DNA of 64,000 bases, from positions 250,038-314,037 of the forward strand of contig MHKS01000005.1 in the NCBI GenBank assembly GCA_001818495.1, written 5' to 3'. Positions 19,407-33,398 of the stretch are shown piece by piece (the stretch's first letter is position 1; the number at the start of each line of letters is the position of its first letter). Source of the DNA: Candidatus Komeilibacteria bacterium RIFOXYD1_FULL_37_29. GTDB lineage: Bacteria; Patescibacteriota; Patescibacteriia; UBA1558; GWA2-36-10. Both the position numbers and the translations under genes were made by a program. Below the pieces are notes generated by a model. It saw only the letters and a program-made list of their open reading frames with translations, was not told where the DNA came from and did not search any database.

Positions 19407-19426
19407 TTTGTTATGATATTTGGAGT

Positions 19427-19596
19427 AGGGAGAGGTAGCAGATCCCGCGTAGCGGGACCCCGCTTTGCGGGGGTGGTTTAGAAATAGTAAGTTGATAATT
19501 TCATTTAGTTTTGGAGAGGTGGCAGCTCCCGCGCAGCGGGACCCCGCTTTGCGGGGGTGGTTTAGAAATAGTAAGTTGATAATTTCATTTAGTTTT
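19427..19596. repeat. Two tandem copies of a roughly 84-bp unit, each beginning with the first 9 nt of the adjacent tRNA (GGAGAGGTG) and containing GC-rich hairpins (CCCGCgcaGCGGG; CCCCGCtttGCGGGG)
   Basis: Copy A is about 19430-19512 and copy B 19513-19596. They are roughly 92% identical and directly abut the 5' end of tRNA-Ser. Confidence 0.8.
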
Positions 19597-19686
19597 GGAG
19601 AGGTGCTAGAGTGGTTGAATAGGGTGCTCTCGAAAAGCACTAGTCCTGAAAGGGACTCGGGGGTTCAAATCCCTCCCTCTCCGCCA
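19597..19686 (+). tRNA. tRNA-Ser (anticodon CGA), type II with a long variable arm, 3' CCA encoded
   Basis: GGAGAGGTG...acceptor, with the pairing CCTCTCC-G-CCA at the 3' end. D-loop AGAGTGGTTGAA. Anticodon loop CTCGAAA. Long extra arm. T-arm GGTTCAAATCC. Confidence 0.85.
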
Positions 19687-20035
19687 TCCTTCGCTAAAGC
19701 TACGGAATGACTAGCCATATGTTATATTATACTTACATTTTATTAAGCTCAAAATCTCATATTTTTTATTTTGGTTCAACGAATAATTTAAAAAATAGAT
19801 TGGAGCTGCATAATAGCGGCAAGGTAACATCAACTAAATCGCATATACCTTGGAAATTAGTTTGGTATTGTGTATTTGAAACGGAAAAACAGGCAAGAGA
19901 TTTTGAGCTTTATTTAAAAACAGGGTCAGGAAAATCTTTTGCTTATAAAAGACTTATTTCCGTGGCTTTAGAGAAGGATTTCAGGGAAGGGAGAATAGGT
20001 AGTCCGAAGCGGAAGCCTTAGCTTTTGCGAAGGAT
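19687..20035. mobile_element. 349-bp GIY-YIG mini-element inserted at the 3' end of tRNA-Ser. It is bounded by 16-bp imperfect terminal inverted repeats (TCCTTCGCTAAAGCTA / TAGCTTTTGCGAAGGA) and flanked by a 16-bp direct repeat of the tRNA 3' end (CCCTCCCTCTCCGCCA at 19671-19686; ACCTCCCTCTCCGCCA at 20036-20051).
   Basis: Repeats are read directly. TIR match is 15/16 and DR match 15/16. The only gene inside is the GIY-YIG ORF. Confidence 0.6.
19707..20021 (+). CDS. GIY-YIG nuclease-domain protein (YhbQ/Slx1-like, UPF0213 family)
   Basis: YYTYILLSSKSHIFYFGSTNNLKNRLELHN...TK...PWKLVWYCVFETEKQARDFELYLK matches the GIY-YIG core (GIY / YIG / R / E / N). Confidence 0.8.
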   Translation: MTSHMLYYTYILLSSKSHIFYFGSTNNLKNRLELHNSGKVTSTKSHIPWKLVWYCVFETEKQARDFELYLKTGSGKSFAYKRLISVALEKDFREGRIGSPKRKP

Positions 20036-20190
20036 ACCTCCCTCTCCGCCAGATTACCAAGTTTGAACCCAAGCAAAATAAGGGTTTTGTGCTATTGAAA
20101 AGCCGGTGTCCGAATAAGGTGCTGATTTTTTAAAATCCTTATCAAATGAGTAAATTTTTGGTAAAATAGAGTTAATAAGAATAGAATTAT

Positions 20191-22020
20191 ATGTCTAAAA
20201 AAATTGATTACGACAACTGGTCAAAAGATGAGATAATCAAGGAGATTAGGCGAATCAAAGAAACTACATACGGACTTGTGTGGCATCGCGACTTACCTGA
20301 GGAAAAAATTGATATTCTTATAAACCCAGATGCTCGGACTCCAAATGAAATGTTCCCTAACGAAATGGCGGGCAAGCCATTTCCAGTTTTGAAAGAGGCA
20401 AAAACAAAAACAATTGAGACTGATAAAAATAAGCCGACAAATATTTTGATTGAGGGTGATAATTATCATTCTCTTGCCGTTTTGAATTTTACTCATCAAG
20501 AAGCAATTGATTTGATTTACATTGATCCGCCTTACAATACTGGCCACAACGATTTTGTTTACAATGATAAAATTAAAAGCGGTTATGTTGTTAAAGATGA
20601 TCCATTTAGGCATAGTAAATGGATTTCTTTCATGGAAAAAAGGTTAAAACTCGCAAAAAATTTATTGAAATCGTCGGGTGTTATTTTTATTAGTATTGAC
20701 GACAATGAATTTGCTCCATTAAAAATGCTGTGTGACGAGATTTTTGATGAAAGTAATTTCATCTCTATGTTGTCAATTGAAAATAATCCTAAGGGACGGA
20801 AAAACTCCGATTTTATATCTATTTGTAATGATTATTGTCTTATATACGCTAAAGACAAAGGTAAAAGTTATTTTGTTGAAAATATTCCCAAACAAGCTGA
20901 CGACTTAACGATTGATGATAATGGAGACTATGTACACAATAGCGGCAAACGGGTCCTTGTTGGAGAAAATAAATTTAATCCGCTTGTAGAAGATTTTGAA
21001 TCAGCTAAGCATTATAGTGTTTATTACAATCAGACTGATAATAAAATTAAAATAGAGGTGGAAAAAAATATTCACGAGGCAAACAAAGATTTATTAAAAA
21101 ACGGATATAAAAGATACTATTCTTATTTTGGAGACAGATTTGTCTTGAATACTTATACAAAATCAAAAATCATAGAGCTTTTCGAAGATGAGGCTCTCGA
21201 ATTCAAAAATGGGAGTATATATGAAAAAAATTTCAGCACAACAATTAGACTAAAAAGTCTTGTTATCAATAAAAAATATGAGGCAGTAATAAATAATGAA
21301 AAAGCAGAATATCAAATAGATGTTAAAACGACTTCAGCGAAGACTGAATTAAAGGATATTTTCAACACTGACCAAATTCCATTTGATAACCCCAAGAATA
21401 TTGGTTTGATAAAATTATTGGTAACATTATTTGAAAATAAATCAATAACTATTTTAGATTTTTTTGCAGGATCGGGAACGACCGGGCATGCAGTCCTTGG
21501 TCAAAATAAAGAAGATGGAGGAAATCGACAATTTATTCTGTGCACGAATAATGAAAATAATATATGCACTGATATCTGCTATCCCCGTCTTGGAAAAGTT
21601 ATAAAGGGATATAAAAATTCAAGAAATGAAAAAATTGATGGTTTGGGTGGAAACCTGAGATATTTTACTGCTTATGACTTTGTAGAAGCTAAGGAAACAG
21701 ATAGAAACAAAAGAAAACTAGTAAACCAATCAACAGAAATGCTTTGCATTAAGGAAAATGCTTTTGAGCTTGTGCAAGAAGTTGAAGATTATAAAATCTT
21801 CAAGAATCATGATAAATATTTGGGAATTATTTTTCATGAAGATTCTATATCGGACTATGTCAAAGCAATAAAAAAGATAAAAGGACACTTTAATACTTAT
21901 ACATTTTCAATGACGGATGATCCTCACAAAGAGGAATTTACTGATGTTGCGGACAAAGTAACTCTTTGTGCAATTCCAGAAATGATTTTGAAAGTATATC
22001 ATGAGATTTTCAAGGAATAA
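20191..22020 (+). CDS. mod: Type III restriction-modification system, Mod subunit (N6-adenine DNA methyltransferase)
   Basis: Motif IV DPPY within LIYIDPPYNTGHNDFVYND. Motif I FFAGSGTTGHAV. 609 aa. Overlaps res by 20 nt. Confidence 0.85.
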   Translation: MSKKIDYDNWSKDEIIKEIRRIKETTYGLVWHRDLPEEKIDILINPDARTPNEMFPNEMAGKPFPVLKEAKTKTIETDKNKPTNILIEGDNYHSLAVLNFTHQEAIDLIYIDPPYNTGHNDFVYNDKIKSGYVVKDDPFRHSKWISFMEKRLKLAKNLLKSSGVIFISIDDNEFAPLKMLCDEIFDESNFISMLSIENNPKGRKNSDFISICNDYCLIYAKDKGKSYFVENIPKQADDLTIDDNGDYVHNSGKRVLVGENKFNPLVEDFESAKHYSVYYNQTDNKIKIEVEKNIHEANKDLLKNGYKRYYSYFGDRFVLNTYTKSKIIELFEDEALEFKNGSIYEKNFSTTIRLKSLVINKKYEAVINNEKAEYQIDVKTTSAKTELKDIFNTDQIPFDNPKNIGLIKLLVTLFENKSITILDFFAGSGTTGHAVLGQNKEDGGNRQFILCTNNENNICTDICYPRLGKVIKGYKNSRNEKIDGLGGNLRYFTAYDFVEAKETDRNKRKLVNQSTEMLCIKENAFELVQEVEDYKIFKNHDKYLGIIFHEDSISDYVKAIKKIKGHFNTYTFSMTDDPHKEEFTDVADKVTLCAIPEMILKVYHEIFKE

Positions 22021-24262
22021 TTATATGTCATGGATTAATTTTAAAAATTATCAAGAAACTGCAATCGATGAAATACGCGACAAGATTAATGCCCTGCTCA
22101 AAAAAGAGGGTAATAGACTTTGCGTATTCAAAGCTCCGACTGGTTCGGGGAAAACTTTAATGATGGCGGAATGGATGATGAGGTTTTGTGACCCATATTC
22201 GCGAATTGATGGGAAAACTTTTTCTTTTGTATGGATAGCAGTAAATAAATTACATGATCAAAGCCATGACAGTTTAAAAAAGTTTTATGAGCTCAAAGGA
22301 GCGGGGCTTCGTTGTTCATATTTTCACGAACTTGAGGATAGAAAAATAAAACAGAACGAGATTTTATTTTTGAATTGGGCAAGTATCAATAATGAAGACA
22401 AGATTATTGTTCGCGCGAATGAAAGAGATAATAATCTCTCAACAATAATTGATCGGACCAAAGATGCCAGTCGGACAATTATTTTGATTATCGACGAAAG
22501 CCACCATACCGCAAAAAGTAAAAATTCAAAGGCTTTAATAAAAAATATTGACCCTAAAATTACGATCGAGGTTTCTGCTACACCAGAAATTTTTGATTTT
22601 GATGAGCGGGTAACCATTGATATTGAGGATGTACGAAGCGAGGAAATGATAAAGAAAGAAATTGTAGTGAACCCTGGCTTCAAAAATTACACAGTTGATC
22701 CAAAAAAGAACGATCAAACAGCAGACGAATTAATCTTGAAGTCTGCTTTGCAAAAAAGGATTGATTTGCGAAAAAAATTAGAAAAAGATGGTTCAAATGT
22801 CAATCCCTTATTACTTATTCAATTACCGGATACAAAAAAAGGAGTTCCTGATAAAAAAGAGGAGATTGAAACACTTCTTGCTAAATTTGGCTATACAACA
22901 AAAAATGGAAAGTTGGCTGTCTATCTTTCTGAAAAAGATAACAAAATAAATCTTGCTAATATTGAGAAAAATGAAAACGAAGTGGAGGTAATGATGTTCA
23001 AGCAAGCGATTGCACTTGGTTGGGATTGTCCAAGAGCTACAATTCTTGTGCTTTTCCGTCAATGGAAAGATGAAACGATAACATTCTCAATCCAAACATT
23101 GGGAAGAATCATGCGTATGCCTGAGCAAAAACATTATAAAGATCAAGAGTTGAATATTGCTTATCTTTATACTAGTTTACAAGACATTAATACTCGTATT
23201 TTGAAAGGTGCTTCGTCGGGAATAAAATCTCTTACGAGTTATCGCAATGAGAAATATAAAAATATTGACCTAATTTCATATCACTCAAAACGATTCCGTG
23301 AGGAAACTCGTTTGTCTTCTGATTTTGTGAAAATTTTTATCGAAGCCGCTAAAAAAACAAATTTAAAAGATGTTTCGCTAAAAGTCGGGATTGTGAAAAC
23401 AACAATGATCAAAGATGGACGCGTGGAAAATGCGGATAAAGAAATAACAAAGATTGAAAGTGATACTTTTTCTATACCCAAAACAGAGACGGAGCTGCAA
23501 TATACTTTTGATATGTTTGTGCTTGATAATCTTGATCCGTTTGAACATGAAGCCCGTTCTATAAAACGCATAAACGATTCAATTTATACTTTCTTTGGCG
23601 CACGACGCAAAGAAGATGAATGGCCTAAAATACAAGCCACGATACTTTCGTATGAAAAGAATCGCCAAGCTGTAATTGATGCTATTAATCTAGCAAAAGA
23701 TTTATATAAAACCGAAGTTGGAAAAGGCAAAAAAGAACTGATACAAAATGATGAGCCGTGGAATGTGCCAGAAGCTATTAATTTTGATCCGTCATTTGTA
23801 GAGCAAAATTATAAAAAATCTATAATGCAACCATATTACGCTCGTTCTCGGGATGGAGAAAACGGACGATTGTTTGAGGACAGTGAAATTGAAAATGATT
23901 TTATTAAATACCTAGAAAAAGCACAGAAAGTTGTTTGGTGGTTCAGAAATGGGAAACAAGACGGATCATTTTTTGCTGTCCCGCACATTGAACACGGACA
24001 AGAAAAGCCGTTTTATGTTGATTTTATAGTTATGATGAAAAATGGAACTGTTGGGCTTTTTGATACAAAATCAGGATATACTGCCGAACTAGCAAAATCT
24101 CGCTCTGATGGACTTGTAAAATATATTAATGAGCAGAAAAAGAAAAAAATTACTGGCGGAATTGTGAGATACGAAAAGAAAAGTTGGCTATATTTTACTA
24201 ACAAAGAATATAAATATAATCCGAATGATATAAAGGATTGGGAATTTTTGGATTTGAATTAA
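22001..24262 (+). CDS. res: Type III restriction enzyme, Res subunit (SF2 helicase-nuclease)
   Basis: Walker A FKAPTGSGKT. DEAH box IIDESHH. 753 aa. Translationally coupled to mod. Confidence 0.85.
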   Translation: MRFSRNNYMSWINFKNYQETAIDEIRDKINALLKKEGNRLCVFKAPTGSGKTLMMAEWMMRFCDPYSRIDGKTFSFVWIAVNKLHDQSHDSLKKFYELKGAGLRCSYFHELEDRKIKQNEILFLNWASINNEDKIIVRANERDNNLSTIIDRTKDASRTIILIIDESHHTAKSKNSKALIKNIDPKITIEVSATPEIFDFDERVTIDIEDVRSEEMIKKEIVVNPGFKNYTVDPKKNDQTADELILKSALQKRIDLRKKLEKDGSNVNPLLLIQLPDTKKGVPDKKEEIETLLAKFGYTTKNGKLAVYLSEKDNKINLANIEKNENEVEVMMFKQAIALGWDCPRATILVLFRQWKDETITFSIQTLGRIMRMPEQKHYKDQELNIAYLYTSLQDINTRILKGASSGIKSLTSYRNEKYKNIDLISYHSKRFREETRLSSDFVKIFIEAAKKTNLKDVSLKVGIVKTTMIKDGRVENADKEITKIESDTFSIPKTETELQYTFDMFVLDNLDPFEHEARSIKRINDSIYTFFGARRKEDEWPKIQATILSYEKNRQAVIDAINLAKDLYKTEVGKGKKELIQNDEPWNVPEAINFDPSFVEQNYKKSIMQPYYARSRDGENGRLFEDSEIENDFIKYLEKAQKVVWWFRNGKQDGSFFAVPHIEHGQEKPFYVDFIVMMKNGTVGLFDTKSGYTAELAKSRSDGLVKYINEQKKKKITGGIVRYEKKSWLYFTNKEYKYNPNDIKDWEFLDLN

Positions 24263-24265
24263 ATT

Positions 24266-25450
24266 ATGGCATTAGAATCAGAAAAATTGGAAGAAAAAAT
24301 AGTTGATAATTATTTTACTGATACTCTATATAGTAGTCGGGAATTTAAGGGTGGAGTAGGTAAATTTTTTACAATAGTATCTCAGGATGAAAATGATATC
24401 CCAAATGTAGTTGATGTTGAGCATTCGTATCCTATACGCAATAAAATAAAGACAACGCTGACATTTATCAAAAAAGAAAACGAAATTACAGCCATTTCCT
24501 TTAAGCGTTTTAAATATTATAAAAAAGAACATTGGGTTGAACAACCAGAAGAACAGATTACTTTTTCATACAGTCTTTTTAAAAAAATTATTGGGTATTT
24601 ACAGTTACTATCAGAATTAAATTTGTCGGCTATTAGTGAGCGAAGAATTGCTTTAGCCGATGACACATTACCGAATATTGACGATGAAACAAAAAAGAAG
24701 ATTAAAACATTGCTTTTACGCAAAGATGGGCAAAAAATTATTGAGGAATTAATAAATAGCGGAATAATTACATCAACCGATATTGTAAATATCGGGTATC
24801 GAAAAAAACAACTTGATGTTTTTGAGAAGCTCCTGACACAACCCGATTATTTTGCAACCTATATAACTGAAAGTAAAATTACAGATACTCGTCATGAGTC
24901 TGTTTGGCAACATTTCTTCCATTCTAATGATTGGATTTTTGGATATGGACTAGATTATCGCTTTCTTGGCATCCTGCAAAAAGAAGCTCATATTTCAAAT
25001 ACAGACGTCGCAGGAAAAGGGGCTGTTATAAATGATTTTCTACTCGGGTGCAATAAATTCACCGTTTTGGTTGAATTAAAAAAACACGACACACCATTAT
25101 TTGGAAAAGACAAAAACCGGTCAAACTCTTGGACACTTTCAGATGATTTAATATCTGGTCTATCTCAAATATTAGAGCAAAAAGCTAGTTGGCAGGTTTC
25201 GGCCGAGACAAATGCAAGTGGAAATTTTGACGATAAGGGTAATTTGATAAAACAAAAAACTATCGATCCAAAAAGTATCTTAGTTATCGGATCAACAAAG
25301 CAATTTGATGGTGATGATAAAGAAAATCAAATTAAAGCAAAAACCTTTGAACTTTTTAGACGAGATTCAAGAAATATAGAAATTCTTACTTATGACGAAC
25401 TGTATGAGAGAGCGAAGTTTATTGTTGAACATAAACAGAAAGACAACTAG
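24266..25450 (+). CDS. Putative defense-associated PD-(D/E)xK nuclease, Shedu (SduA/DUF4263)-like
   Basis: 394 aa. Core AVINDFLLGCNKFTVLVELKK gives D...ELK, a PD-(D/E)xK signature. C-terminal KSILVIGST...IEILTYDELYERA resembles DUF4263 ends. Immediately downstream of Type III R-M. Confidence 0.4.
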   Translation: MALESEKLEEKIVDNYFTDTLYSSREFKGGVGKFFTIVSQDENDIPNVVDVEHSYPIRNKIKTTLTFIKKENEITAISFKRFKYYKKEHWVEQPEEQITFSYSLFKKIIGYLQLLSELNLSAISERRIALADDTLPNIDDETKKKIKTLLLRKDGQKIIEELINSGIITSTDIVNIGYRKKQLDVFEKLLTQPDYFATYITESKITDTRHESVWQHFFHSNDWIFGYGLDYRFLGILQKEAHISNTDVAGKGAVINDFLLGCNKFTVLVELKKHDTPLFGKDKNRSNSWTLSDDLISGLSQILEQKASWQVSAETNASGNFDDKGNLIKQKTIDPKSILVIGSTKQFDGDDKENQIKAKTFELFRRDSRNIEILTYDELYERAKFIVEHKQKDN

Positions 25451-25793
25451 GTTTAAATAGAATAATCCACCTCATTTTTGCTCTTATCTGATTTTAGCTT
25501 CGGTGTCTCAAACCATTCTGGATGAACCTTGAACATAGCCCTTAATTCGCGTATACTTTTATCAATATCCTTAAATTTGAACCACTTTTTTGGTTCAAAC
25601 TTCGGGACATCGCCACCGCCACTCGATTCGCATTTTGCTTCGCAAAAAGCTCACTCGTGATCTACGGTGCTAAAGCACCTTCGACCATTCTAATTCTAGA
25701 ATCGAGTGTATTGAGCGAGCGTAGCGAGTCGAAAGGCACGCGCTATCGTGCTAGCATAAGTGTATTAAAAAATTTCTATATAGTTATTAAAAT

Positions 25794-26387
25794 ATGGATC
25801 AACAAACAATCAATACATACAACAGGATGTCACAAGAGTATGATGATGAAACAGCTGATTTTTGGGAGCGATTTCCTCGAACATTTCTTGATAAATTTAT
25901 TAAGCTATCCGGTAATAAAATACTTGATGTTGGGAGCGGACCAGGTAGAGATGGTTTGATACTTCAACAGGCCGGTAAAAATGTTGTCTGTGTGGATGCT
26001 TCTGCAGCAATGGTGAAATTGTCTTCAGACAGAGGTTTAAACTCTATAGTAGCCAGTTTCGACAATTTACCATTTGAAAATAATTCATTTGACGGCGTAT
26101 GGTCATATACTGCTCTTTTACATATTCCCAAAAAATCTATCGATACCCCTCTTCAAGAGATTTTTCGTATTATCAAACCTTCAGGTATTTTTGCTCTTGG
26201 TCTGATTGAAGGGGACACAGAAGGATACAAAGAAAGCTCTGAAGTGACTATGCCTCGTTGGTTTAGTTTCTATCAGAAAGACGAAGTTGAAAATTTATGC
26301 CAAAAGCACGGATTTGAGCTGGTTTACTTTGAGACTTTTAAACCAGGGTCCAAGCCCTATTTGAATTTTATTTTTCGAAAAATATAA
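25794..26387 (+). CDS. Class I SAM-dependent methyltransferase (Methyltransf_11-like)
   Basis: Motif I KILDVGSGPGRDGL. Acidic motif II VVCVDAS. 197 aa. Confidence 0.75.
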   Translation: MDQQTINTYNRMSQEYDDETADFWERFPRTFLDKFIKLSGNKILDVGSGPGRDGLILQQAGKNVVCVDASAAMVKLSSDRGLNSIVASFDNLPFENNSFDGVWSYTALLHIPKKSIDTPLQEIFRIIKPSGIFALGLIEGDTEGYKESSEVTMPRWFSFYQKDEVENLCQKHGFELVYFETFKPGSKPYLNFIFRKI

Positions 26388-26416
26388 TACTACTAGAACA
26401 TTTTTATCTATCTCAA

Positions 26417-26665
26417 TTTTCACTGTCTTTTCAGGCAGTTTTTTGGTATAATCAAAGCATTAATTAATAAAAATATTATGATTGACGAAGAAATAAAGCA
26501 AATTATTCAGGAAAATAAGGACACTTTGGCTAATATTGATAAAAGGATTGGTCGGATTGAGAAAAATTTTATTTGGAGTTCAATTTTTGGTTTTATAAAG
26601 ATTGTTATTATTGTAGCACCGATTGTTTTTGGTATTATTTATTTTACGCCATTTTTGAAAGATTT
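26417..26665. repeat. Left copy of a roughly 250-bp direct repeat (about 95% identical to 33399..33648). It carries an extended -10 promoter (TTTTGGTATAAT) and the 5' part of a small membrane-protein gene.
   Basis: Direct sequence comparison. Shared sequence runs from TTTTCACTGTCTTTTCAGGCAGTTTTTTGGTATAATCAAAG through ...TTTACGCCATTTTT. Confidence 0.9.
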
Positions 26666-26690
26666 AAATAAATTGGGTATTATTACATAA
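26478..26690 (+). CDS. Small membrane protein (70 aa). A truncated paralog/duplicate of 33461..33811.
   Basis: MIDEEIKQIIQENKDTLANIDKRIGRIEKNFIWSSIFGFIKIVII... is near-identical to the N-terminus of the 33461 ORF. It diverges where the DNA repeat ends. Confidence 0.6.
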   Translation: MIDEEIKQIIQENKDTLANIDKRIGRIEKNFIWSSIFGFIKIVIIVAPIVFGIIYFTPFLKDLNKLGIIT

Positions 26691-26707
26691 TTAAGAAATG
26701 GTAGTAT

Positions 26708-28426
26708 ATGAAAAAGTCAAAAGTCATATTAGGGATTACTGCCTTTAATCATGATTCTTCGGCGTGCTTAATTTATCAAGGTAGAGTAATTGCATTTTGT
26801 GAGGAGGAAAGATTCAATGGCATAAAACATACCGGAGATTTTCCGATAAAATCAATTTTATTTTGTTTAGAAAAAGCTGGTTTGTCATTAAATGATGTGA
26901 CTGATGTAGCTTTTTATTTTAATATTAAAAAATGTTTATTGAGTTATATAAAGAACAATAATCCACTCTATTATATTATTCATCCATCTTTATTTAAGAG
27001 GAAAAGATTTTATTATGAAATTATTTGGTTATTTAGTTTTATAAACAAAATTAATTCAATTAAAAAACTCCTTAATAATTATAAGATAAAGATTACTTAT
27101 GTAGATCATCATATGGCGCACGCTTGGTATGGGTATTTTTCTTCAAATTTTAAAAATTGCACGGTAGTTTCTAATGACAGCGTAGGCGAGAGTGTGAGTA
27201 GTTTAGCCGTAAAGATACAGAGAGAAGATAAAAAAATTATTTTTGGTAAGACATTCAGTCAAACAGACCCTCACTCTATTGGGTATTTGTATGGTGCTAT
27301 AACTGAATTTTTAGGATTCAAAAGAGGTCAAGACGAAGGAAAGGTTATGGCTATGGCGGCTTTAGGGAAAGATAAATATGTAAAATATTTTGATGACTTG
27401 ATTAGATATTTACCTAATGGGGAATTTAGAATAAGTAAGGAGTTGATTTCCTTACGTAATTTTCAGCCAAAATCACAAAGATTAAGCAATGATTTTTTAA
27501 AAAAATTTGGATATTATCGTCAACCCCAAGAACCATTTATCCAAAAGCATTATGATATTGCTTATGCAATACAAGGGGTAACGGAAAAAATTTTATATCA
27601 CCAATTAAAATATATTAATGATGATAATATAGTCATTACTGGTGGTATTGCTCAAAATAGTGTAGCCAACGGGAAACTCAACAATTTTTTTTATAAAAGA
27701 AATATATTTATTCCTCCGATTCCTAATGATGCCGGGTGTGGTATTGGCGCGGCGCTTTCTTTATATTATAAGTATTATGAAGATTTACCAGAGTTTGTGG
27801 ATACTGCGTTTTTAGGCCCAGAATTTTCTGATCATAAAATCATTAAAACATTAGAAAATAATAAAATAAATTTTAAAATTATAAAAAATCAGACGGAATT
27901 CATTATTAATGAGCTTTTGAAAAATAAGATTATCGCTATATATAGAAATGAGATGGAGTGTGGTCCTAGGGCATTAGGTAATAGGAGTATAATAGCCAAT
28001 CCAATTGATCCGGCGATGAAGAATTACATCAATGAAAAAATAAAACACCGTGAATTTTTTCAGCCATACGGCGGGTTGATTATTGATAAAAATGTTAAAG
28101 AAGTATTTGATTATAAGAATAAAAATATTTCCGGACCATATATGTCTTTTGTTTATCCAATTAAAGATAAATGGTTAAAAATGTTTCCATCTTTGGTTCA
28201 TTTTGATAAAACTTCTAGAATTCAAATAATAAAGAAGGAACAAAATTTTTTATATAGTCTCTTGGAAGAATTTTATAAAAAAACAGGTGTCCCCGTAATT
28301 ATAAATACTTCCCTTAATTTAAGAGGGCAGCCTATGGCAAGAAGCCATCAAGATGCTTTAAACACATTTTATAATTCGGGGATTCATTATATTTTATTTA
28401 ATAACAGTATTCTAGTTTCAAAATGA
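26708..28426 (+). CDS. NodU/CmcH-family carbamoyltransferase
   Basis: N-terminal KVILGITAFNHDSSACLIYQGRVIAFCEEERFNGIKHTGDFP matches the carbamoyltransferase N-domain (compare TobZ/NodU ...LG...HD.AAAL..DG.I.AA.EEERF.R.KH). A DHHMAHAWYGYF metal-binding motif is present. 572 aa. Confidence 0.85.
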   Translation: MKKSKVILGITAFNHDSSACLIYQGRVIAFCEEERFNGIKHTGDFPIKSILFCLEKAGLSLNDVTDVAFYFNIKKCLLSYIKNNNPLYYIIHPSLFKRKRFYYEIIWLFSFINKINSIKKLLNNYKIKITYVDHHMAHAWYGYFSSNFKNCTVVSNDSVGESVSSLAVKIQREDKKIIFGKTFSQTDPHSIGYLYGAITEFLGFKRGQDEGKVMAMAALGKDKYVKYFDDLIRYLPNGEFRISKELISLRNFQPKSQRLSNDFLKKFGYYRQPQEPFIQKHYDIAYAIQGVTEKILYHQLKYINDDNIVITGGIAQNSVANGKLNNFFYKRNIFIPPIPNDAGCGIGAALSLYYKYYEDLPEFVDTAFLGPEFSDHKIIKTLENNKINFKIIKNQTEFIINELLKNKIIAIYRNEMECGPRALGNRSIIANPIDPAMKNYINEKIKHREFFQPYGGLIIDKNVKEVFDYKNKNISGPYMSFVYPIKDKWLKMFPSLVHFDKTSRIQIIKKEQNFLYSLLEEFYKKTGVPVIINTSLNLRGQPMARSHQDALNTFYNSGIHYILFNNSILVSK

Positions 28427-29247
28427 TTAAAGATTTTCAAAAGATAGAGTTTTTAAAATCACTTTACAGTGATAAAGACTTAATATCGTTTCGTGGCAAT
28501 TTTTTAAAAAATAATTCCAACCGTAAATTCTCATTAAGATCTTTTATTATTAAACTTTTGCCGATGCTAAAGGATAAAAAAATATTAGACATTGGTTGCG
28601 GAGACGGGTCATTCCTCAATAAATTACATACGGTATATCCTCAAAATAAATATTTTGGTTTGGATGTAGTAGATAATGCTAAATGCCATAAATTGAAATT
28701 TCTTGACTACAAAATTTATGATGGTAAATCCAGGGTTTATTATACGGAAAAATTTGATGTGATATTTTGTATGCACACTGTTTATCATATCGAAGATTTA
28801 TTCACTTTTTTTACAACGATGAAAGACTATTTAAAGCCCCATGGCATTATTATCATTACTACGAAGTCTAAATTGACTTTTCCTAAAATAGAATCAATCT
28901 TTTTAAAGATTGTCGGTAAGCTTGACTTAAAAAAATATTTAAAAATTAGCAAACACAGAGAGGAATCAAAATTTTGTTTGGAGAACGGATTAAACAGATT
29001 AAAAAAACACTTCGCTAGGCGGTCATTTAGTATAAATGAGTATGTTTTAGAAACGCAGGTTTTTGTTAATGACAAAAAAGATCTTTTGAAATATGTTTTT
29101 TCTACAAATAGATATAATATTTTGAAAGATACTTTAAACAAAAAAATTGTTGAAAAATATACAAAACTTTGGTTTGAAGAAATTGATAAAGATCAGATAT
29201 TCATTGATAAATATACGGAGGCTGTTTATTTAATAAAAAAATTATGA
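28423..29247 (+). CDS. SAM-dependent methyltransferase
   Basis: Motif I KILDIGCGDGSFLNKL. D-x motif KYFGLDVVD. Start overlaps the upstream stop by 4 nt. Confidence 0.7.
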   Translation: MIKDFQKIEFLKSLYSDKDLISFRGNFLKNNSNRKFSLRSFIIKLLPMLKDKKILDIGCGDGSFLNKLHTVYPQNKYFGLDVVDNAKCHKLKFLDYKIYDGKSRVYYTEKFDVIFCMHTVYHIEDLFTFFTTMKDYLKPHGIIIITTKSKLTFPKIESIFLKIVGKLDLKKYLKISKHREESKFCLENGLNRLKKHFARRSFSINEYVLETQVFVNDKKDLLKYVFSTNRYNILKDTLNKKIVEKYTKLWFEEIDKDQIFIDKYTEAVYLIKKL

Positions 29248-30311
29248 AAATAGGTTATAGTTGCTGGGGATTTTTGGGTAACGGAATAAAGGATACACCG
29301 GATGGCGGGAGGAGTCACCGGTTGACTTTATTGAAAGAATTAATCCGTCAAGGAGTTGAAATAGTAATGTTGCAAAAGAATAGAGACCTCATTGAAGGCA
29401 ATCAAAGTTTTTCACGAAAGAATTTAATATTTAGTGGTGAGTTACCGGAAATAGATGCTCTATTTGTAGAATATAGATGGAAGATAGTAGGAAGGAATTA
29501 TAAGGTGAGAAAAAATAATCCAGCCTATACTCCGGATTTCGATAGACAGAGTGAATTAATTAATTTTTATAATAATAGAAATATTCCTATTATTATTTGG
29601 GATAAAGATCAGAAACTTGGTAAGAATGAAATAAAAGGCATTAAAAATTTGATTGTATTTGAACCTGCTTTAAAGCCAAGGTTTAATAGAAAAAGTTTAT
29701 TGTTTCCGATGGACAATCATAGAACAAAAATTGTCCTCAAATTGATAGGTAAGTATAAAAAAAATATTAAGAGCTCCAAGTTGTGTTACATTGGAAATCA
29801 ATATGAGAGAGATGGTAGTTTTAAAGAGTTTATTAATAAGCCAGCCAGTATGCTCGATACCAAAACACCAGTATTTGGTAATTGGAACAAATATCCAGAA
29901 AAGTATAAGCAAAATATGCAAAAATTTTCCAATGTTGAATTTAAAGGTAGGGTGCAGTTTAATAAAGTTAATAATATTTATAAAAAATCTTTTTCTACAG
30001 TTCTTATCGCGCCACGGAGATATTATATCACGGGTCATTTTACACAAAGATTATTTGAGGCAATGTGGGGCTTATGCATTCCTTTTACCCCGCAGCAATA
30101 TCATGGATGGCAGGGTTTAATAATAAAAGATTTTATAATTAGATCTGGCAAAGATTTAATAAATAAGATAAAAAAATTAGAAACAACGCCCGATTCAGAT
30201 ATAAGGAGAATGTTTGATAGACAGTTTGAGAAACTTAATTTATTTAATGCCAGTAAACAAGCCAGTATAATTATAAACGAAATCAATAATCATAATGGTA
30301 GACTCGGGTAA
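29244..30311 (+). CDS. T4 beta-glucosyl-HMC-transferase-like (BGT-family GT-B) putative DNA glycosyltransferase
   Basis: Comparison with the recalled T4 BGT sequence shows collinear matches. MKIGYSCWGFLGNG vs MKIAIINMGNNVIN. RLTLLKELIRQGVEIVMLQKN vs IYLFKVISEMGLNVDIISLKN. CYIGNQYERDGSF vs IYGGSFRSGQRE. TKTPVFGNWNKYP vs TKAPVFTGKIP. FTQRLFEAM vs ITLRVWETM. 355 aa versus 351 aa for T4 BGT. Confidence 0.55.
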   Translation: MKIGYSCWGFLGNGIKDTPDGGRSHRLTLLKELIRQGVEIVMLQKNRDLIEGNQSFSRKNLIFSGELPEIDALFVEYRWKIVGRNYKVRKNNPAYTPDFDRQSELINFYNNRNIPIIIWDKDQKLGKNEIKGIKNLIVFEPALKPRFNRKSLLFPMDNHRTKIVLKLIGKYKKNIKSSKLCYIGNQYERDGSFKEFINKPASMLDTKTPVFGNWNKYPEKYKQNMQKFSNVEFKGRVQFNKVNNIYKKSFSTVLIAPRRYYITGHFTQRLFEAMWGLCIPFTPQQYHGWQGLIIKDFIIRSGKDLINKIKKLETTPDSDIRRMFDRQFEKLNLFNASKQASIIINEINNHNGRLG

Positions 30312-31074
30312 TAAAAATAAATCTTTAGAAATTGTAATTGATTCTAAACACTATATTAAAAAAAGATATTCTGATATCCAACGTTTTTTTTGTGAATTAA
30401 AATATCTTAAATATTTTAAAGATGAAGATATCAATGTTCCTTTTATATATAAATTTGATAAAATCCAAAAAACAATAATAATAGATAAAATAAAGGGGAA
30501 AATCGGCGATTCATTAAATAATAGAGACACAAAACTATGCATTGATGTGCTTGTCAAAATAATTTTTATTTTTGGTTTGGAAAAGAAAAATAATAATGAA
30601 ATTGATAGGTATATTTCAAAAGTCAGGTCAAATATAATATGGTGGTGTGAAAATAATAATTATATAGTAGAAAAAGAAAAATTAAATATTTTACTTCAAA
30701 AGTTAAGAAAAGTGTGTTATATATCTTTATTCAAAGATGCCAAACCATCTAATTGGATTTTTCAAAAAGATAAAATATACGCAATAGACTTTGATTATGT
30801 AAAAAAATCATTTTTTTTAGCAGATTTAGCACAACTTTTAAGTTATATTTCATTAAGGAAAAAAATAAGTTATATTTTCTTTGTAAATTATTATCTAAAG
30901 CAAATATTCCCAAAAATGAAGGATTATGATAAATTTTATATACCTTTTAAATTAGCGCTTGTTAATTCCAACATTGCTTCTGAACTTCACAGAGAGAATT
31001 TAGGAGCCTATGTAAAAAGGGGTTTTGCCAAACAAAACAGGTTTATTTTGAGTGAATTTAAGATAATATTATAA
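30295..31074 (+). CDS. Atypical protein-kinase-like (Kdo/WaaP/RIO-type) small-molecule kinase
   Basis: Catalytic-loop-like FKDAKPSNWIF (D-x-K-P-x-N) and a metal-binding IYAIDFDYV (DFD) motif. 259 aa. Confidence 0.4.
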   Translation: MVDSGNKNKSLEIVIDSKHYIKKRYSDIQRFFCELKYLKYFKDEDINVPFIYKFDKIQKTIIIDKIKGKIGDSLNNRDTKLCIDVLVKIIFIFGLEKKNNNEIDRYISKVRSNIIWWCENNNYIVEKEKLNILLQKLRKVCYISLFKDAKPSNWIFQKDKIYAIDFDYVKKSFFLADLAQLLSYISLRKKISYIFFVNYYLKQIFPKMKDYDKFYIPFKLALVNSNIASELHRENLGAYVKRGFAKQNRFILSEFKIIL

Positions 31075-31955
31075 TGTCAATATCAATAACCGCCAAATCA
31101 GCTAATGAAGCATTCATTAAAATAGCTGATAAATTGTATAATAATCCGGAATATGTTTCTAGTCCTCGAAGCTGGGAAACAAGGGAGTTATTAGGGGCTT
31201 TTATTGTTATCAACAATCCCTATGATCGTTTTATAAATAATGTTCATAGGAAGATTTCTTTAAAGTATCTTATTGGTGAATGGTTATGGTATGAGCGAGG
31301 ATCCAATTCTTTAAATGAAATTAATTATTATGCAAAATTTTGGAGCAGTATTTCGGATGATAAAATAACTGCCAATTCAGCTTATGGTCATAGAATTTTA
31401 GGGATCAATAAGTTCGTGATTATTAATCAATGGAAGTGGGCCAAACGGCAAATAATAAAAGATAAGGAAACAAGGAGAGCCATCATTTTTATTGGATTGC
31501 CAAGTGATATGAAAAACGAAACGAAAGATTTTCCTTGCACTATGTCACTCCAGTTTTTAATAAGAAATAATGAGTTACATTTAATTTGCAATATGAGGAG
31601 CAATGATTTAGTATTGGGTTTTACTTATGATGTAGCTACCTTTACTTTATATCAAGAAAAAATGTTGTTGGAGTTGAAAAAATATTATCCAAAATTAAAG
31701 ATAGGTAAATATTTTCATATGGTAGGCAGTTTACACGTATATAAGAAAAACTATGAGATGATAAAAAAAGTGATAAATGATCAGGACAATAATTTGAAAA
31801 TTACCATGCCTCGCATGGGTGATTTAAAAGAAATAAAAAAACTCCAGTATAACGAGAGTATTATAAGAGAAAATAAAAATAAAAAGTTTAAAAAAATTGA
31901 AGATAGATTCTGTATCTGGTGTCAGAATATTTTATTAAATAAAATTAAATACTAA
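31074..31955 (+). CDS. Thymidylate-synthase-family pyrimidine-nucleotide C5 (hydroxy)methylase with predicted dCMP specificity (deoxycytidylate hydroxymethylase-like)
   Basis: Collinear with E. coli ThyA. KYLIGEWLWYERG vs RSIIHELLWFLQG. The YG loop is conserved. RRAII vs RRIIV. FPCTMSLQFLIRNNELHLICNMRSNDLVLGFTYDVATF vs [38 protein letters not shown]. The catalytic Cys is present. The Asn that reads O4/N3 of dUMP (E. coli N177) is Asp here, as in T4 dCMP hydroxymethylase (Asp179). Confidence 0.7.
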   Translation: MSISITAKSANEAFIKIADKLYNNPEYVSSPRSWETRELLGAFIVINNPYDRFINNVHRKISLKYLIGEWLWYERGSNSLNEINYYAKFWSSISDDKITANSAYGHRILGINKFVIINQWKWAKRQIIKDKETRRAIIFIGLPSDMKNETKDFPCTMSLQFLIRNNELHLICNMRSNDLVLGFTYDVATFTLYQEKMLLELKKYYPKLKIGKYFHMVGSLHVYKKNYEMIKKVINDQDNNLKITMPRMGDLKEIKKLQYNESIIRENKNKKFKKIEDRFCIWCQNILLNKIKY

Positions 31956-31956
31956 A

Positions 31957-32628
31957 ATGAAAGGCATAATTATAGACGGAGTTGTTTCTTCTGGTAAAAC
32001 GTCTATCTTAAAACATCTTCATCGTCTGATTTCAGAACAAAACCCTACTTCAACCAAGTTTTTTATTAGTGAACACTATACTGAGAGAATGTTGGAGCAT
32101 TTGAAAGATAAAGGTGAATTAGACGGTAGCCATATAAAAGCCCACGTTGATCAGTTAATCCATACTTTAGCTTCTTTTCAGTCTATGTTGGATAATTCTA
32201 AGTTTCGTGATAACCCGAAAGGAGCAGATTTGTTTGTTACTTTAGAAAGATTTATTCTAACCCATTTGTCCTCAGTGGACATAGGAGATAAATATAGTCT
32301 TGATGAAGTCAAAGCTCATTTTGAAATTTTAAACAAGCTAGGAGTAAAACAAGTAGCTTTAATAATTCCCGAATCAAGACTAAAAGAAAATATCATGTCG
32401 ACTCTGCAATATCGAAATGACGCCTGGTTGGATTATTTGTATTCTAGGGGTGGAGAAAAAGAAATTATAGAATATTATATCAATTGGCAGAATAATTTTT
32501 TAGAGTATATCAACAAATTTAAAGATATAATAGATACCTTAGTCATCGAAGTAAAAGATCAAGACTATCTTCAATATAGTAATACTATTTTTAATAGTTG
32601 TATTAAATCAGATATTCTCTCAAAATAA
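31957..32628 (+). CDS. P-loop nucleoside/deoxynucleoside monophosphate kinase-like protein
   Basis: N-terminal Walker A MKGIIIDGVVSSGKTSILKHL. 223 aa. The position after the ThyA-like gene mirrors phage dNMP kinases. Confidence 0.45.
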   Translation: MKGIIIDGVVSSGKTSILKHLHRLISEQNPTSTKFFISEHYTERMLEHLKDKGELDGSHIKAHVDQLIHTLASFQSMLDNSKFRDNPKGADLFVTLERFILTHLSSVDIGDKYSLDEVKAHFEILNKLGVKQVALIIPESRLKENIMSTLQYRNDAWLDYLYSRGGEKEIIEYYINWQNNFLEYINKFKDIIDTLVIEVKDQDYLQYSNTIFNSCIKSDILSK

Positions 32629-33114
32629 ATGTTTTTTAATTTTATGTTTTTTATACTTTACCCCGGCTAAATCAAAGAGTTTTTTAGAAACGATAAAATT
32701 ATTCGCATCTTTGTCTGATCTATCATCTTGATAGATTATATTTTTTATGCCGCTTTGGATAATAATTTTTGCACACTCATTGCAGGGGAAGAGTAAACAG
32801 TAAAGTTTTGCATTTTCGGCTGATTGATTAGTATTTAAAATGGCATTTACTTCAGCGTGAACAACATACGGATATTTTGTATTTAAGATATTTTTTTTGT
32901 TATGCCCGTAATTATTACTCCAAGAAAAATGCCCTTCCTTAATACCTCTAGGCCAACCGTTGTAGCCAACTCCTAAAACAACATTATTTTTATCAACCAC
33001 GACAGCTCCGGTTTGAGTTGATGGGTCTTTTGATCTCTGAGCTATAACTTGAGCCATTAGCATAAATGTTTCATCCCACGATAAATAGTTTTTTCTAGCT
33101 TTTATATTATCCAT
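32620..33114 (-). CDS. Deoxycytidylate (dCMP) deaminase
   Basis: Zinc site HAEVNAI and PCNECAKII (cytidine/deoxycytidylate deaminase signature). 164 aa. Convergent with the kinase gene. Confidence 0.85.
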   Translation of the reverse strand: MDNIKARKNYLSWDETFMLMAQVIAQRSKDPSTQTGAVVVDKNNVVLGVGYNGWPRGIKEGHFSWSNNYGHNKKNILNTKYPYVVHAEVNAILNTNQSAENAKLYCLLFPCNECAKIIIQSGIKNIIYQDDRSDKDANNFIVSKKLFDLAGVKYKKHKIKKHLF

Positions 33115-33398
33115 TTTTGTAGGTTAGATCACTTTATAAGAATATAATACCCCATACTTATCTTAAAAGTCAAAGATTATAACTATTATTTTTATGTCGA
33201 AACTAGTCAACAAACTAAAACCGAGAAAAATTTTTGGTTGTCAGAAAGAAGCTTGAATAATATAGGCAAGAAAGAGAGTTTTATTATAATGCTCGGAGGA
33301 GATATGTGAAATATTATGAACCAAACATTTAATTCGCAATGATTACTGGTTGTTCTATATAAAAAGATAGAGCCGTTAGTGTTAGTTGACGATTTCTG

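What the first reader, a model, noticed from the sequence alone, without database searches (positions are those of the whole stretch)
20191..25450. Defense island beside the tRNA: Type III R-M (mod/res overlapping by 20 nt) followed by a Shedu/DUF4263-like PD-(D/E)xK nuclease
Mod carries DPPY and FxGxG motifs. Res carries a Walker A motif and a DEAH box. The third gene has a D...ELK nuclease core and a DUF4263-like C-terminus. Co-localisation of R-M with a Shedu-like gene next to a tRNA and a mobile mini-element is typical of horizontally acquired defense islands. These genes are even more AT-rich than the surroundings.
Basis: partly seen in the sequence, partly recalled or inferred. Interest (0 to 1): 0.5.

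Follow-up and report, generated by a model that had tools for sequence, protein, structure and literature searches.

The report
Restriction system plus Shedu nuclease island
Three tightly packed genes in a groundwater candidate-phyla-radiation bacterium encode an ordinary Type III restriction-modification system followed by a Shedu anti-phage nuclease, sitting in a 14-kb inserted segment; the only mildly notable point is that this Shedu lineage is almost always found embedded in restriction-modification operons of many kinds.

Summary
There are three intact, same-strand ORFs: Mod 20191-22020, Res 22025-24262 and SduA 24266-25450.

- **Mod** is a beta-class Type III methyltransferase (PADLOC MTase_III 1.9e-76; EcoP15I Mod 4.8e-35).
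- **Res** is a divergent ResIII-type SF2 ATPase with an invariant C-terminal D...DxK motif. The EcoP15I Res structure is the best fold match.
- **The third gene** is a full-length Shedu SduA (PADLOC SduA 1.7e-154) with all catalytic residues present.

Three details need correcting:
- The 20-nt mod/res overlap comes from taking the first ATG. The likely start is 22025, which leaves a 4-nt gap.
- The helicase box is DESH, not DEAH.
- The block is more AT-rich than the upstream DNA but not than the downstream DNA.

Syntenic relatives lack 19407-33460, so the genes lie in an inserted or variable segment.

Two points go beyond the finding:
- Relatives of this SduA sit directly after R-M genes (Type I, II or III) in about 24 of 28 distinct loci.
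- The closest Mod-Res operons carry other genes, or none, in the third position.

The R-M/Shedu association is already published (Gu et al. 2023). This is a new member of known kinds and of modest interest.

The parts
20191..22020 (+). mod: Type III (beta-class, motif IV before motif I) N6-adenine DNA methyltransferase, 609 aa. DPPY is at nt 20524-20535 and FAGSG at nt 21463-21477. The central target-recognition domain is about aa 196-385.
   Evidence: Pfam N6_N4_Mtase 4.6e-29. PADLOC MTase_III 1.9e-76. PDB Mbo45V 1.5e-53, H. pylori Mod 1.1e-41 and EcoP15I Mod 4.8e-35. The gene is a mosaic against the closest alleles: N-terminal part 84%, TRD 12%, C-terminal part 80% identity.
22025..24262 (+). 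res: Type III-like restriction subunit, 745 aa (753 aa if started at ATG 22001). It has an SF2 ATPase motor: PTGSGKT at 22136-22156, DESH at 22493-22504, SATP at 22574-22585 and QTLGRIMR at 23093-23116. It also has a C-terminal PD-(D/E)xK-type motif, FYVD...DTK, at 24011-24070.
   Evidence: Pfam ResIII 6.7e-21, DEAD 9e-10 and a weak Helicase_C match. PADLOC REase_III 4.7e-20. All motifs are invariant in 16 homologs down to 29% identity. In the AF2 model (pLDDT 72) the best PDB fold match is EcoP15I Res 4zcf_C at E 5e-8. The start at 22025 is supported.
24266..25450 (+). sduA: Shedu immune nuclease, 394 aa. An N-terminal beta-sheet-plus-helix domain (about aa 1-120) and a helical linker precede a C-terminal DUF4263 PD-(D/E)xK domain. 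The catalytic residues are E211, D257, E270, K272 and Q301.
   Evidence: PADLOC SduA PDLC00392 1.7e-154 over aa 9-393. Pfam SduA_C 9.9e-30. B. cereus SduA 8ti8 3.7e-13. The catalytic residues are invariant in 57 homologs. Foldseek matches only B. cereus and E. coli SduA structures.
19597..19686 (+). tRNA-Ser(CGA), at the left edge of the inserted segment.
   Evidence: ARAGORN. Rfam tRNA 52 bits. No tRNA is present in the syntenic loci L104 and L105.
19669..20051 (+). GIY-YIG mini-element: a 104-aa GIY-YIG ORF (19707-20021) bracketed by an 18-nt direct repeat of the tRNA 3' end (19669-19686 and 20034-20051).
   Evidence: Pfam GIY-YIG 1.5e-16. The repeat occurs twice in the window against 0.04 expected by chance (family D9).
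19407..33460 (.). A 14-kb low-GC segment that is absent from syntenic relatives. Its left part (19407 to about 26416) holds the tRNA, the GIY-YIG element, mod-res-sduA and a 197-aa methyltransferase. Its right part (about 26666-33399) is a carbamoyltransferase/methyltransferase cluster bracketed by a 249-nt direct repeat.
   Evidence: L104 and L105 have the 187-aa gene followed after 61 nt by the 117-aa gene and RF. The window's orthologs of these lie at 18843-19388 and 33461-33808. The 249-nt repeat is at 26417-26665 and 33400-33648, 96% identical.

Best explanation
The locus is a three-gene, probably co-transcribed defence operon. It lies in a horizontally acquired or variable 14-kb segment of a Patescibacteria (CPR) chromosome.

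**Genes 1 and 2** form a Type III restriction-modification system.
- Mod recognises a short asymmetric site through its central TRD and methylates one adenine (N6).
- Res joins Mod and uses ATP through its SF2 motor to leave the site and travel along DNA.
- Res cuts unmethylated foreign DNA with its C-terminal PD-(D/E)xK domain.

**Gene 3** is a Shedu nuclease, SduA. By analogy with solved homologs it is a tetramer. Its DUF4263 PD-(D/E)xK domain is held inactive by the N-terminal domain until a phage-associated DNA feature is sensed. That feature is free DNA ends in E. coli SduA, and probably single-stranded nucleic acid for the class that includes B. cereus SduA.

**Relationship between the two systems.** SduA is a separate cassette that rides at the 3' end of R-M operons. 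It is not a dedicated partner of this Res.

**Shown here:** the family memberships, intact catalytic motifs, gene order and spacing, TRD mosaicism, the insertion relative to syntenic relatives, and the recurrent R-M-embedded position of this SduA clade.

**Inferred:** the enzymatic activities, co-transcription, and any synergy, for example SduA acting on the DNA ends made by restriction.
For: **Family assignments**
- Searches give the HMM and PDB sequence matches for all three proteins.
- One search shows the Res motifs are invariant in homologs down to 29% identity.
- One search shows the SduA catalytic residues are invariant in 57 sequences.
- Searches give the Res model and its top fold match, EcoP15I Res.
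- Searches show the SduA model matches only Shedu structures.

**Operon structure**
- The gaps are 4 nt (mod to res) and 3 nt (res to sduA).
- A terminator-like hairpin at 20104-20124 precedes promoter-like hexamers at 20139-20187, just upstream of mod (weak evidence).

**A working specificity system**
- Mod is 80-84% identical to its nearest alleles outside the TRD and 12% identical inside it.

**SduA as a cassette**
- SduA is 82-90% identical in loci whose Res is only 30-32% identical (L014, L019).
- The same clade follows a Type I HsdR (L002), AlwI-type enzymes (L024, L041), N6/N4 or C5 methylases (L021, L029, L026), HsdM or HsdS (L071, L074, L077, L091, L095) and REase-ARP (L064).
- The closest Mod-Res operons (Res 66-89% identical) have nothing, DUF6119 or an AAA_21 ATPase in the third position.

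**Insertion**
- Searches give the synteny comparison and the flanking repeat.

**Literature**
- Gu et al. 2023 (10.1101/2023.08.10.552793) found 602 of 5,499 Shedu genes inside R-M systems of Types I-IV.
- Loeff et al. 2023 (10.1101/2023.08.10.552762) describe DNA-end sensing by SduA.
Against: - Res is far from canonical Type III Res at the sequence level. A family profile finds no EcoP15I Res in the PDB.
- hhalign against EcoP1I Res aligns only helicase motifs V/VI (E 1.3e-4, probability 54%).
- The Res C-terminal domain has no Pfam match. Its nuclease assignment therefore rests on an invariant motif and the model's alpha-beta-beta-beta-alpha-beta topology.
- Foldseek TM-scores for the whole-chain match are low (0.24-0.28), and generic SF2 helicases score nearly as well.
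- The SduA model is only moderately confident (pLDDT 64), so its N-terminal fold class is not settled.
- Promoter and terminator scans are at chance level.
- No methylation, expression or phage-challenge data exist.
Confidence: 0.88

Rival explanations
1. Functional coupling. SduA is a second-stage effector of the R-M system rather than an independent defence. Restriction of unmethylated phage DNA makes free double-strand ends. The SduA tetramer binds and nicks or degrades these ends. This destroys the restriction fragments and blocks recombinational rescue, which may matter in CPR genomes that could lack RecBCD/AddAB.
For: - About 24 of 28 distinct loci with a tightly spaced upstream neighbour on the same strand have an R-M component directly before sduA (gap 2-32 nt). 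The partners are of Types I, II and III.
- This is much higher than the roughly 11% reported for Shedu overall.
- A trigger generic to all R-M types, namely DNA ends, would explain why one conserved SduA tolerates partners that are only 30% identical or of another type.
- E. coli SduA senses free dsDNA ends.
Against: - Some members of the clade stand next to non-R-M genes: SAM_HAT in L001/L022, EamA in L072, and none identified in L044 and L065.
- The N-terminal domain here has no sequence similarity to the E. coli end-sensing clamp. E. coli SduA is matched only by fold search, more weakly than B. cereus SduA.
- Shedu protects as a single gene in published assays.
- Clustering in operons is also what simple defence-island hitch-hiking and shared regulation would produce.
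- The locus sample is a convenience sample of metagenome contigs, not a phylogenetically corrected count.
Confidence: 0.25
2. Guard model. SduA is a back-up that fires when the R-M system is disabled by phage anti-restriction proteins or DNA mimics. Being embedded in the operon ensures matched expression.
For: The evidence is contextual only. The clade is persistently embedded in R-M operons. The variable third slot of the closest Mod-Res operons is filled by other candidate defence genes, DUF6119 and an AAA_21 ATPase.
Against: - A guard that reads the state of its partner would be expected to co-evolve with it. Here SduA is 82-90% identical next to Res proteins that are 30% identical, and also next to Type I and Type II systems.
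- No Shedu is known to sense proteins.
- Nothing in the sequence suggests a protein-binding sensor.
Confidence: 0.05
3. The Mod-Res pair is not a classical Type III system. It would instead be another helicase-methylase defence module, for example a Type ISP-like, PbeA-like or otherwise non-canonical ResIII system, with a different cleavage logic.
For: - Res does not match EcoP15I or EcoP1I Res by sequence profile.
- Res has a secondary PADLOC hit to PbeA at 6e-12.
- Res is about 220 aa shorter than EcoP1I Res (745 aa against 970 aa).
Against: - Mod is a clear homolog of solved Type III Mods over both conserved lobes.
- The gene order is mod then res, with a 4-nt gap.
- The best PADLOC hit for Res is REase_III.
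- The best fold match is EcoP15I Res.
- The architecture, an N-terminal SF2 motor followed by a C-terminal D...DxK motif, is the Type III one. It is not the Type I or ISP architecture, in which the nuclease is N-terminal.
- Sources annotate family members as 'type III restriction enzyme'.
Confidence: 0.08

Closest known systems
Type III restriction-modification systems (EcoP15I, EcoP1I; Mod homologs Mbo45V and H. pylori Mod)
   Same: - The mod-res operon order is the same.
- Mod is a beta-class N6_N4 methyltransferase with a central TRD, and it is homologous to solved Type III Mods (1.5e-53 to 4.8e-35).
- Res has an N-terminal SF2 DExH ATPase and a C-terminal PD-(D/E)xK-type motif.
- EcoP15I Res is the best structural match.
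- TRD swapping between alleles occurs, as in other Type III mod genes.
   Different: - Res is 745 aa, against 970 aa for EcoP1I.
- Res is not detectably similar to EcoP15I or EcoP1I Res by sequence outside helicase motifs V/VI.
- It belongs to a large family, with more than 6,700 database hits, whose listed and named members are mostly from Patescibacteria.
- There are no simple-sequence repeats in mod, so there is no sign of phase variation.
Shedu (SduA; B. cereus 8TI8/8TI9, E. coli 8PS4/8PS5; PADLOC model PDLC00392)
   Same: - It matches an existing PADLOC SduA model over its full length (1.7e-154).
- It has the DUF4263 domain with motifs I-IV: E211, D257, E270/K272 and Q301.
- It has the two-domain layout: an N-terminal regulatory domain, a helical linker and a nuclease domain.
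   Different: - The N-terminal domain has no sequence match to either solved SduA.
- Its predicted five-strand sheet plus helix gives only non-significant hints of the PC4/Whirly-like fold of Type 1A Shedu (E about 1).
- This clade is embedded in R-M operons far more regularly than Shedu as a whole.
Shedu genes encoded within R-M or BREX operons (Gu et al. 2023/2025)
   Same: This is the same phenomenon. Gu et al. reported 602 of 5,499 Shedu genes within Type I, II, III or IV R-M systems and suggested that Shedu complements R-M.
   Different: Two points are added here. First, for one SduA clade centred on CPR bacteria, the R-M-embedded position is close to the rule, and the cassette is exchanged between unrelated R-M operons. 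Second, the third slot of this particular Mod-Res family is itself variable: SduA, DUF6119, AAA_21 or empty.

Membership tests
Type III R-M | Mod subunit: a beta-class (motif IV DPPY before motif I FxGxG) N6-adenine methyltransferase with a central TRD, homologous to EcoP15I/EcoP1I Mod | tested here: met
   DPPY at aa 112-115 and FAGSG at aa 425-429. PADLOC MTase_III 1.9e-76. PDB EcoP15I Mod 4.8e-35 and Mbo45V 1.5e-53. The variable TRD is shown.
Type III R-M | Res subunit with SF2 helicase-like ATPase motifs (Walker A, DExH, motifs III and VI) | tested here: met
   Pfam ResIII 6.7e-21. PADLOC REase_III 4.7e-20. PTGSGKT, DESH, SATP and QxxGRxxR are invariant in the family.
Type III R-M | Res C-terminal PD-(D/E)xK endonuclease domain | tested here: inconclusive
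   E623 and the FYxD666...D680-x-K682 motif are invariant, and the model has alpha-beta-beta-beta-alpha-beta topology at pLDDT 81-95. However, the domain has no Pfam hit, and there is no sequence-level alignment to the EcoP15I or EcoP1I nuclease domain.
Type III R-M | mod upstream of res in one operon | tested here: met
   Same strand, with a 4-nt gap (or a 20-nt overlap if the first ATG is used). The same order is seen in L003, L005, L014, L099, L101 and L102.
Type III R-M | Hemimethylation of an asymmetric site, and ATP-dependent cleavage requiring two inversely oriented unmethylated sites | not testable with these tools
   This needs methylome sequencing and biochemistry.
Shedu (SduA) | DUF4263 / SduA_C domain above the curated threshold | tested here: met
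   Pfam PF14082: 104.2 bits against a cut-off of 27. PADLOC SduA 1.7e-154 over the full length.
Shedu (SduA) | Complete PD-(D/E)xK active site (motif I E, motif II D, motif III ExK, motif IV Q, as defined for B. cereus Shedu) | tested here: met
   E211, D257, E270, K272 and Q301 align with the B. cereus residues. They are invariant in 57 homologs. The motif definitions come from Gu et al..
Shedu (SduA) | Type 1 architecture: an N-terminal regulatory domain plus a linker before the nuclease | tested here: met
   About 200 residues precede the DUF4263 domain. The model shows strands at 20-101, a helix at 102-117 and linker helices at 140-225. The sub-class (1A, 1B or 1X) is not resolved.
Shedu (SduA) | Homotetramer, with nuclease activity required for phage defence | not testable with these tools
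   This needs biochemistry and phage assays.
tRNA-targeted integrative genomic island | Direct repeat of the tRNA 3' end at the far boundary of the island, plus an integrase | tested here: not met
   The tRNA 3'-end repeat has only two copies, 365 nt apart, and they bracket the GIY-YIG ORF only. No integrase was found among the genes scanned between 19.4 and 31.1 kb; the ORFs from 31.1 to 33.5 kb were not scanned. The insertion is shown by synteny instead.

The most novel reading that the evidence does not exclude
This SduA clade is not a free-standing defence. It would be a portable 'post-restriction' module that depends on the DNA ends made by whatever R-M system it is attached to (Type I, II or III). 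It would finish off restricted DNA in lineages with reduced recombination and repair machinery, such as CPR bacteria. That would make R-M plus Shedu a two-step composite system and would define the physiological trigger of one Shedu class.
Probability: 0.2. Interest if true: 0.6.

Novelty: new member of a known kind. Interest (0 to 1): 0.3.

Why it matters
As it stands, this is a routine annotation: a Type III R-M system plus Shedu in a variable region of a CPR genome.

It has modest value in three ways:
- It is a clean example of defence genes packed at operon scale in ultra-small genomes.
- It shows one Shedu lineage being shuffled between unrelated R-M operons.
- It shows a Mod-Res family whose third position acts as an exchangeable slot (SduA, DUF6119, AAA_21 ATPase).

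If the association reflects real coupling, with Shedu acting on restriction-generated ends, it would give a testable trigger for a Shedu class and an example of cooperation between defence systems. Gu et al. have already proposed that idea in general terms.

Tried and rejected
- **Res family profile against the PDB.** It found only generic Walker-A matches and no EcoP15I Res.
- **hhalign of the Res profile against EcoP1I Res from phage P1.** Only motifs V/VI aligned, so sequence-level homology of the nuclease domains could not be shown.
- **hhalign of the Res family against the SduA family.** This tested whether the two nucleases in the operon are related. There was no signal (probability 0.2%).
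- **Pfam on the isolated Res C-terminus and the SduA N-terminus.** Nothing significant was found.
- **Search for a third copy of the tRNA 3'-end repeat to delimit the defence block.** None exists.
- **A 14-nt inverted repeat flanking the block (20059-20072 and 25589-25602, pair I11).** It was judged likely to be chance. The right arm is part of a local hairpin.
- **Promoter and terminator scan.** Counts were at the level of shuffled sequence and can be used only as weak hints.
- **Simple-sequence repeats in mod that would indicate phase variation.** None were found.
- **Rfam on the 84-nt tandem units and on the sduA-downstream spacer.** There were no hits beyond the tRNA.
- **Classifying the SduA N-terminal fold.** The AF2 model confidence (pLDDT 64) was too low. 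PC4/Pur-alpha matches were at E about 1.
Full report
**1. What is in the sequence**

Between 20191 and 25450 there are three long ORFs on the + strand: 20191-22020 (609 aa), 22001-24262 (753 aa from the first ATG) and 24266-25450 (394 aa). tRNA-Ser(CGA) lies just upstream at 19597-19686.

- Mod has DPPY (aa 112-115) and FAGSG (aa 425-429).
- Res has PTGSGKT, but its motif II is DESH, not DEAH.
- SduA has D257...E270-L-K272.

The stated 20-nt overlap depends on using ATG 22001. Three things favour ATG 22025, which leaves a 4-nt gap after the mod stop:
- Public gene calls on identical contigs start Res at the next ATG, giving 745 aa.
- More than 100 homologs are 743-749 aa long.
- AAGGA lies 9 nt upstream of 22025.

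sduA starts 3 nt after the res stop.

**2. Family assignments**

*Mod*
- Pfam N6_N4_Mtase 4.6e-29 and PADLOC MTase_III 1.9e-76.
- Solved Type III Mods match: Mbo45V 1.5e-53, H. pylori Mod 1.1e-41 and EcoP15I Mod 4.8e-35.
- Motif IV precedes motif I, which is the beta-class order.
- Against the closest alleles (L099, L101), Mod is 83-84% identical in aa 1-195 and 79-80% in aa 386-609, but only 12-15% in aa 196-385. This is a TRD swap, as expected for a specificity subunit under diversifying exchange.

*Res*
- Pfam ResIII 6.7e-21, DEAD 9e-10 and a weak Helicase_C match. PADLOC REase_III 4.7e-20, with PbeA 6e-12 as a secondary hit.
- In an alignment reaching down to 29% identity, several motifs are invariant: Walker A, DExH, (S)ATP, QxxGRxxR, and a C-terminal E623 / FYxD666 / D680-x-K682 pattern.
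- Sequence searches do not connect it to canonical Res. A family profile finds no EcoP15I Res in the PDB. hhalign against EcoP1I Res from phage P1 aligns only motifs V/VI (E 1.3e-4).
- An AF2 model (mean pLDDT 72; C-terminal 125 residues at 81-95) shows alpha-beta-beta-beta-alpha-beta topology around the motif.
- Its best PDB fold match is EcoP15I Res 4zcf_C (E 5e-8), followed by other SF2 helicases, including the Type I HsdR subunit.
- I therefore treat Res as a divergent Type III Res. The nuclease domain is supported by motif and topology, but not by independent homology.

*SduA*
- PADLOC SduA model PDLC00392 matches at 1.7e-154 over aa 9-393. Pfam SduA_C matches at 9.9e-30. B. cereus SduA matches at 3.7e-13 over the nuclease domain.
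- Gu et al. defined four catalytic motifs for B. cereus Shedu. They align to E211, D257, E270/K272 and Q301, and all are invariant in 57 homologs.
- An AF2 model (pLDDT 64) matches only Shedu structures: 8ti8, 8ti9, 8ps4 and 8ps5.
- The N-terminal domain is predicted as five strands plus a helix. Similarity to PC4/Pur-alpha folds is not significant, so the Type 1 sub-class remains open.

**3. Genomic setting**

The flanking genes are housekeeping genes. Upstream are YbeY, DAGK, FtsA, FtsZ, NrdR, a prenyltransferase-like protein and a 188-aa membrane protein. From 33.8 kb onward come RF, ComEC and a Lactamase_B gene.

Two related Patescibacteria genomes (L104, L105) keep exactly this order, with flanking proteins 52-90% identical to the window's. 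In L104 the 187-aa gene is followed after 61 nt by the 117-aa gene and RF. L105 has the same gene order. In the window, 19407-33460 (14 kb) lies between those two genes. This segment coincides with the low-GC stretch: 0.25-0.35, against 0.36-0.43 outside it.

- **Left part.** It holds two 84-nt tandem units, tRNA-Ser, a GIY-YIG mini-element bracketed by an 18-nt repeat of the tRNA 3' end, mod-res-sduA, and a 197-aa methyltransferase.
- **Right part.** It is a carbamoyltransferase/methyltransferase cluster bracketed by a 249-nt direct repeat (26417-26665 and 33400-33648, 96% identical). The repeat includes the first ~63 codons of the 117-aa gene.

The claim of an acquired island is therefore supported by synteny. 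Three qualifications apply:
- The tRNA-end repeat does not delimit the defence genes.
- No integrase was found among the genes scanned in the segment. The ORFs between 31.1 and 33.5 kb were not scanned.
- No further defence genes flank the trio.

The block is more AT-rich than the upstream DNA but not than the adjacent downstream cluster.

**4. Is the pairing with Shedu meaningful?**

I collected 98 loci around relatives of this SduA from genomes and metagenomes. I then classified the gene immediately upstream.

Among relatives at least 63% identical to this SduA, the upstream gene is on the same strand with a 2-25 nt gap, and it is:
- a homolog of this Res in L003, L005, L014/15, L016-18 (a 494-aa form lacking RecA1), L019/20, L028, L030, L031-33, L040 and L042
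- a Type I HsdR in L002
- an AlwI-type endonuclease in L024 and L041
- an N6_N4 methylase in L021 and L029

A NucS_C-domain protein precedes sduA in L006, and a C5 methylase lies 148 nt upstream in L026.

More distant relatives (43-45% identical) follow HsdM, HsdS or REase-ARP. In L091 and L095 an HsdR gene lies further downstream, so there the gene sits inside a Type I operon.

In all, about 24 of 28 distinct loci with a tight same-strand upstream neighbour have an R-M component there. The exceptions include SAM_HAT (L001/L022) and EamA (L072).

SduA is 82-90% identical in loci where Res is only 30-32% identical. The cassette has therefore moved between unrelated R-M operons.

Conversely, the closest relatives of this Mod-Res pair carry something else in the third position:
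- nothing (L099; Res 87% identical, with an HTH gene upstream)
- DUF6119 (L101; 89%)
- a 944-aa AAA_21 ATPase plus integrases (L102; 66%)

An annotated Shinella plasmid shows a 54%-identical SduA beside a BsuBI/PstI Type II R-M system.

**5. Mechanism**

The best-supported reading is two defence modules that are mechanistically separate and share one transcription unit.
- The Type III enzyme marks self DNA and cuts unmethylated DNA after ATP-dependent communication between sites. This follows from established knowledge of EcoP15I.
- Shedu is an auto-inhibited tetrameric PD-(D/E)xK nuclease that is released by a phage DNA feature (Loeff et al. and Gu et al.).

The strong positional bias allows a tighter model, in which SduA acts on ends created by restriction. 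One conserved SduA tolerates very different R-M partners. That argues against a specific protein-protein partnership and for a generic DNA-level signal, if any coupling exists. I give this model about 0.2-0.25. A guard model is less likely (about 0.05).

**6. Novelty and verdict**

Both systems are known. This SduA subfamily already has a PADLOC model. The embedding of Shedu in R-M operons of Types I-IV has been published, with 602 of 5,499 cases.

This locus is a new member of known kinds. The added observations are clade-level regularity, cassette exchange, the variable third slot and the defined 14-kb insertion. They are useful but incremental. Interest is 0.3.

Noticed in passing
window 19669-20051: A 104-aa GIY-YIG ORF (19707-20021) is bracketed by an 18-nt direct repeat of the tRNA-Ser 3' end (19669-19686 and 20034-20051, 17 of 18 identical). 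It looks like a roughly 365-nt mini-element inserted at the tRNA 3' end with target duplication. There is no second GIY-YIG copy in the window.
   Followed up: partly
window 19429-19596: Two tandem 84-nt units (96% identical) lie immediately upstream of tRNA-Ser. Each begins with the tRNA's first 8 nt (GGAGAGGT) and contains GC-rich hairpins (CCCGCG.AGCGGG and CCCCGC-TTTG-CGGGGG). There is no Rfam match, and the units occur elsewhere only in the identical public contig L010.
   Followed up: partly
window 26417-26665 and 33400-33648: A 249-nt direct repeat (96% identical) covers a hairpin/promoter region and the first ~63 codons of a conserved 117-aa membrane-protein gene. It brackets a 7-kb, very low-GC (0.25-0.30) carbamoyltransferase/methyltransferase cluster. 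The 70-aa ORF at 26478-26690 is the truncated copy.
   Followed up: partly
window 25453-25650, minus strand: A start-less ORF remnant of about 65 codons (...DVPKFEPKKWFKFKDIDKSIRELRAMFKVHPEWFETPKLKSDKSKNEVDYSI*) converges on the end of sduA. It may be a gene relic. A hairpin, TTTGAACC-N7-GGTTCAAA, lies at 25575-25598. There is no Rfam hit.
   Followed up: no
window 77-10813: A single 3,578-aa ORF lies here. Its ortholog in relative L104 carries T4SS_pilin, Big_5 and He_PIG Pfam hits, so it is a giant surface or pilus-associated protein of the kind common in CPR genomes.
   Followed up: no
L016:289-4283 (also L017, L018): An SduA 84% identical to the window's is preceded by a 494-aa Res-like protein. 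This protein aligns only to Res aa 292-744, so it has no Walker A or DExH lobe. A divergently transcribed ParB_N-N6_N4 methylase lies next to it. This may be a reduced or non-canonical R-M-like partner.
   Followed up: partly
L101:492-6034 and L102:4284-13942: The closest relatives of this Mod-Res pair carry a different third gene 0-4 nt after res. In L101 it is DUF6119 (526 aa). In L102 it is an AAA_21/SMC_N-like ATPase (944 aa), followed by two tyrosine recombinases. The 3' end of this operon family behaves as an exchangeable slot.
   Followed up: partly
L030:1924-4734: A 936-aa protein directly upstream of an SduA (70% identical) combines an HSDR_N nuclease N-terminus and a ResIII motor with a C-terminal region homologous to the window Res C-terminus (aa 583-744). 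It is a hybrid of Type I-like and Type III-like Res architecture.
   Followed up: no
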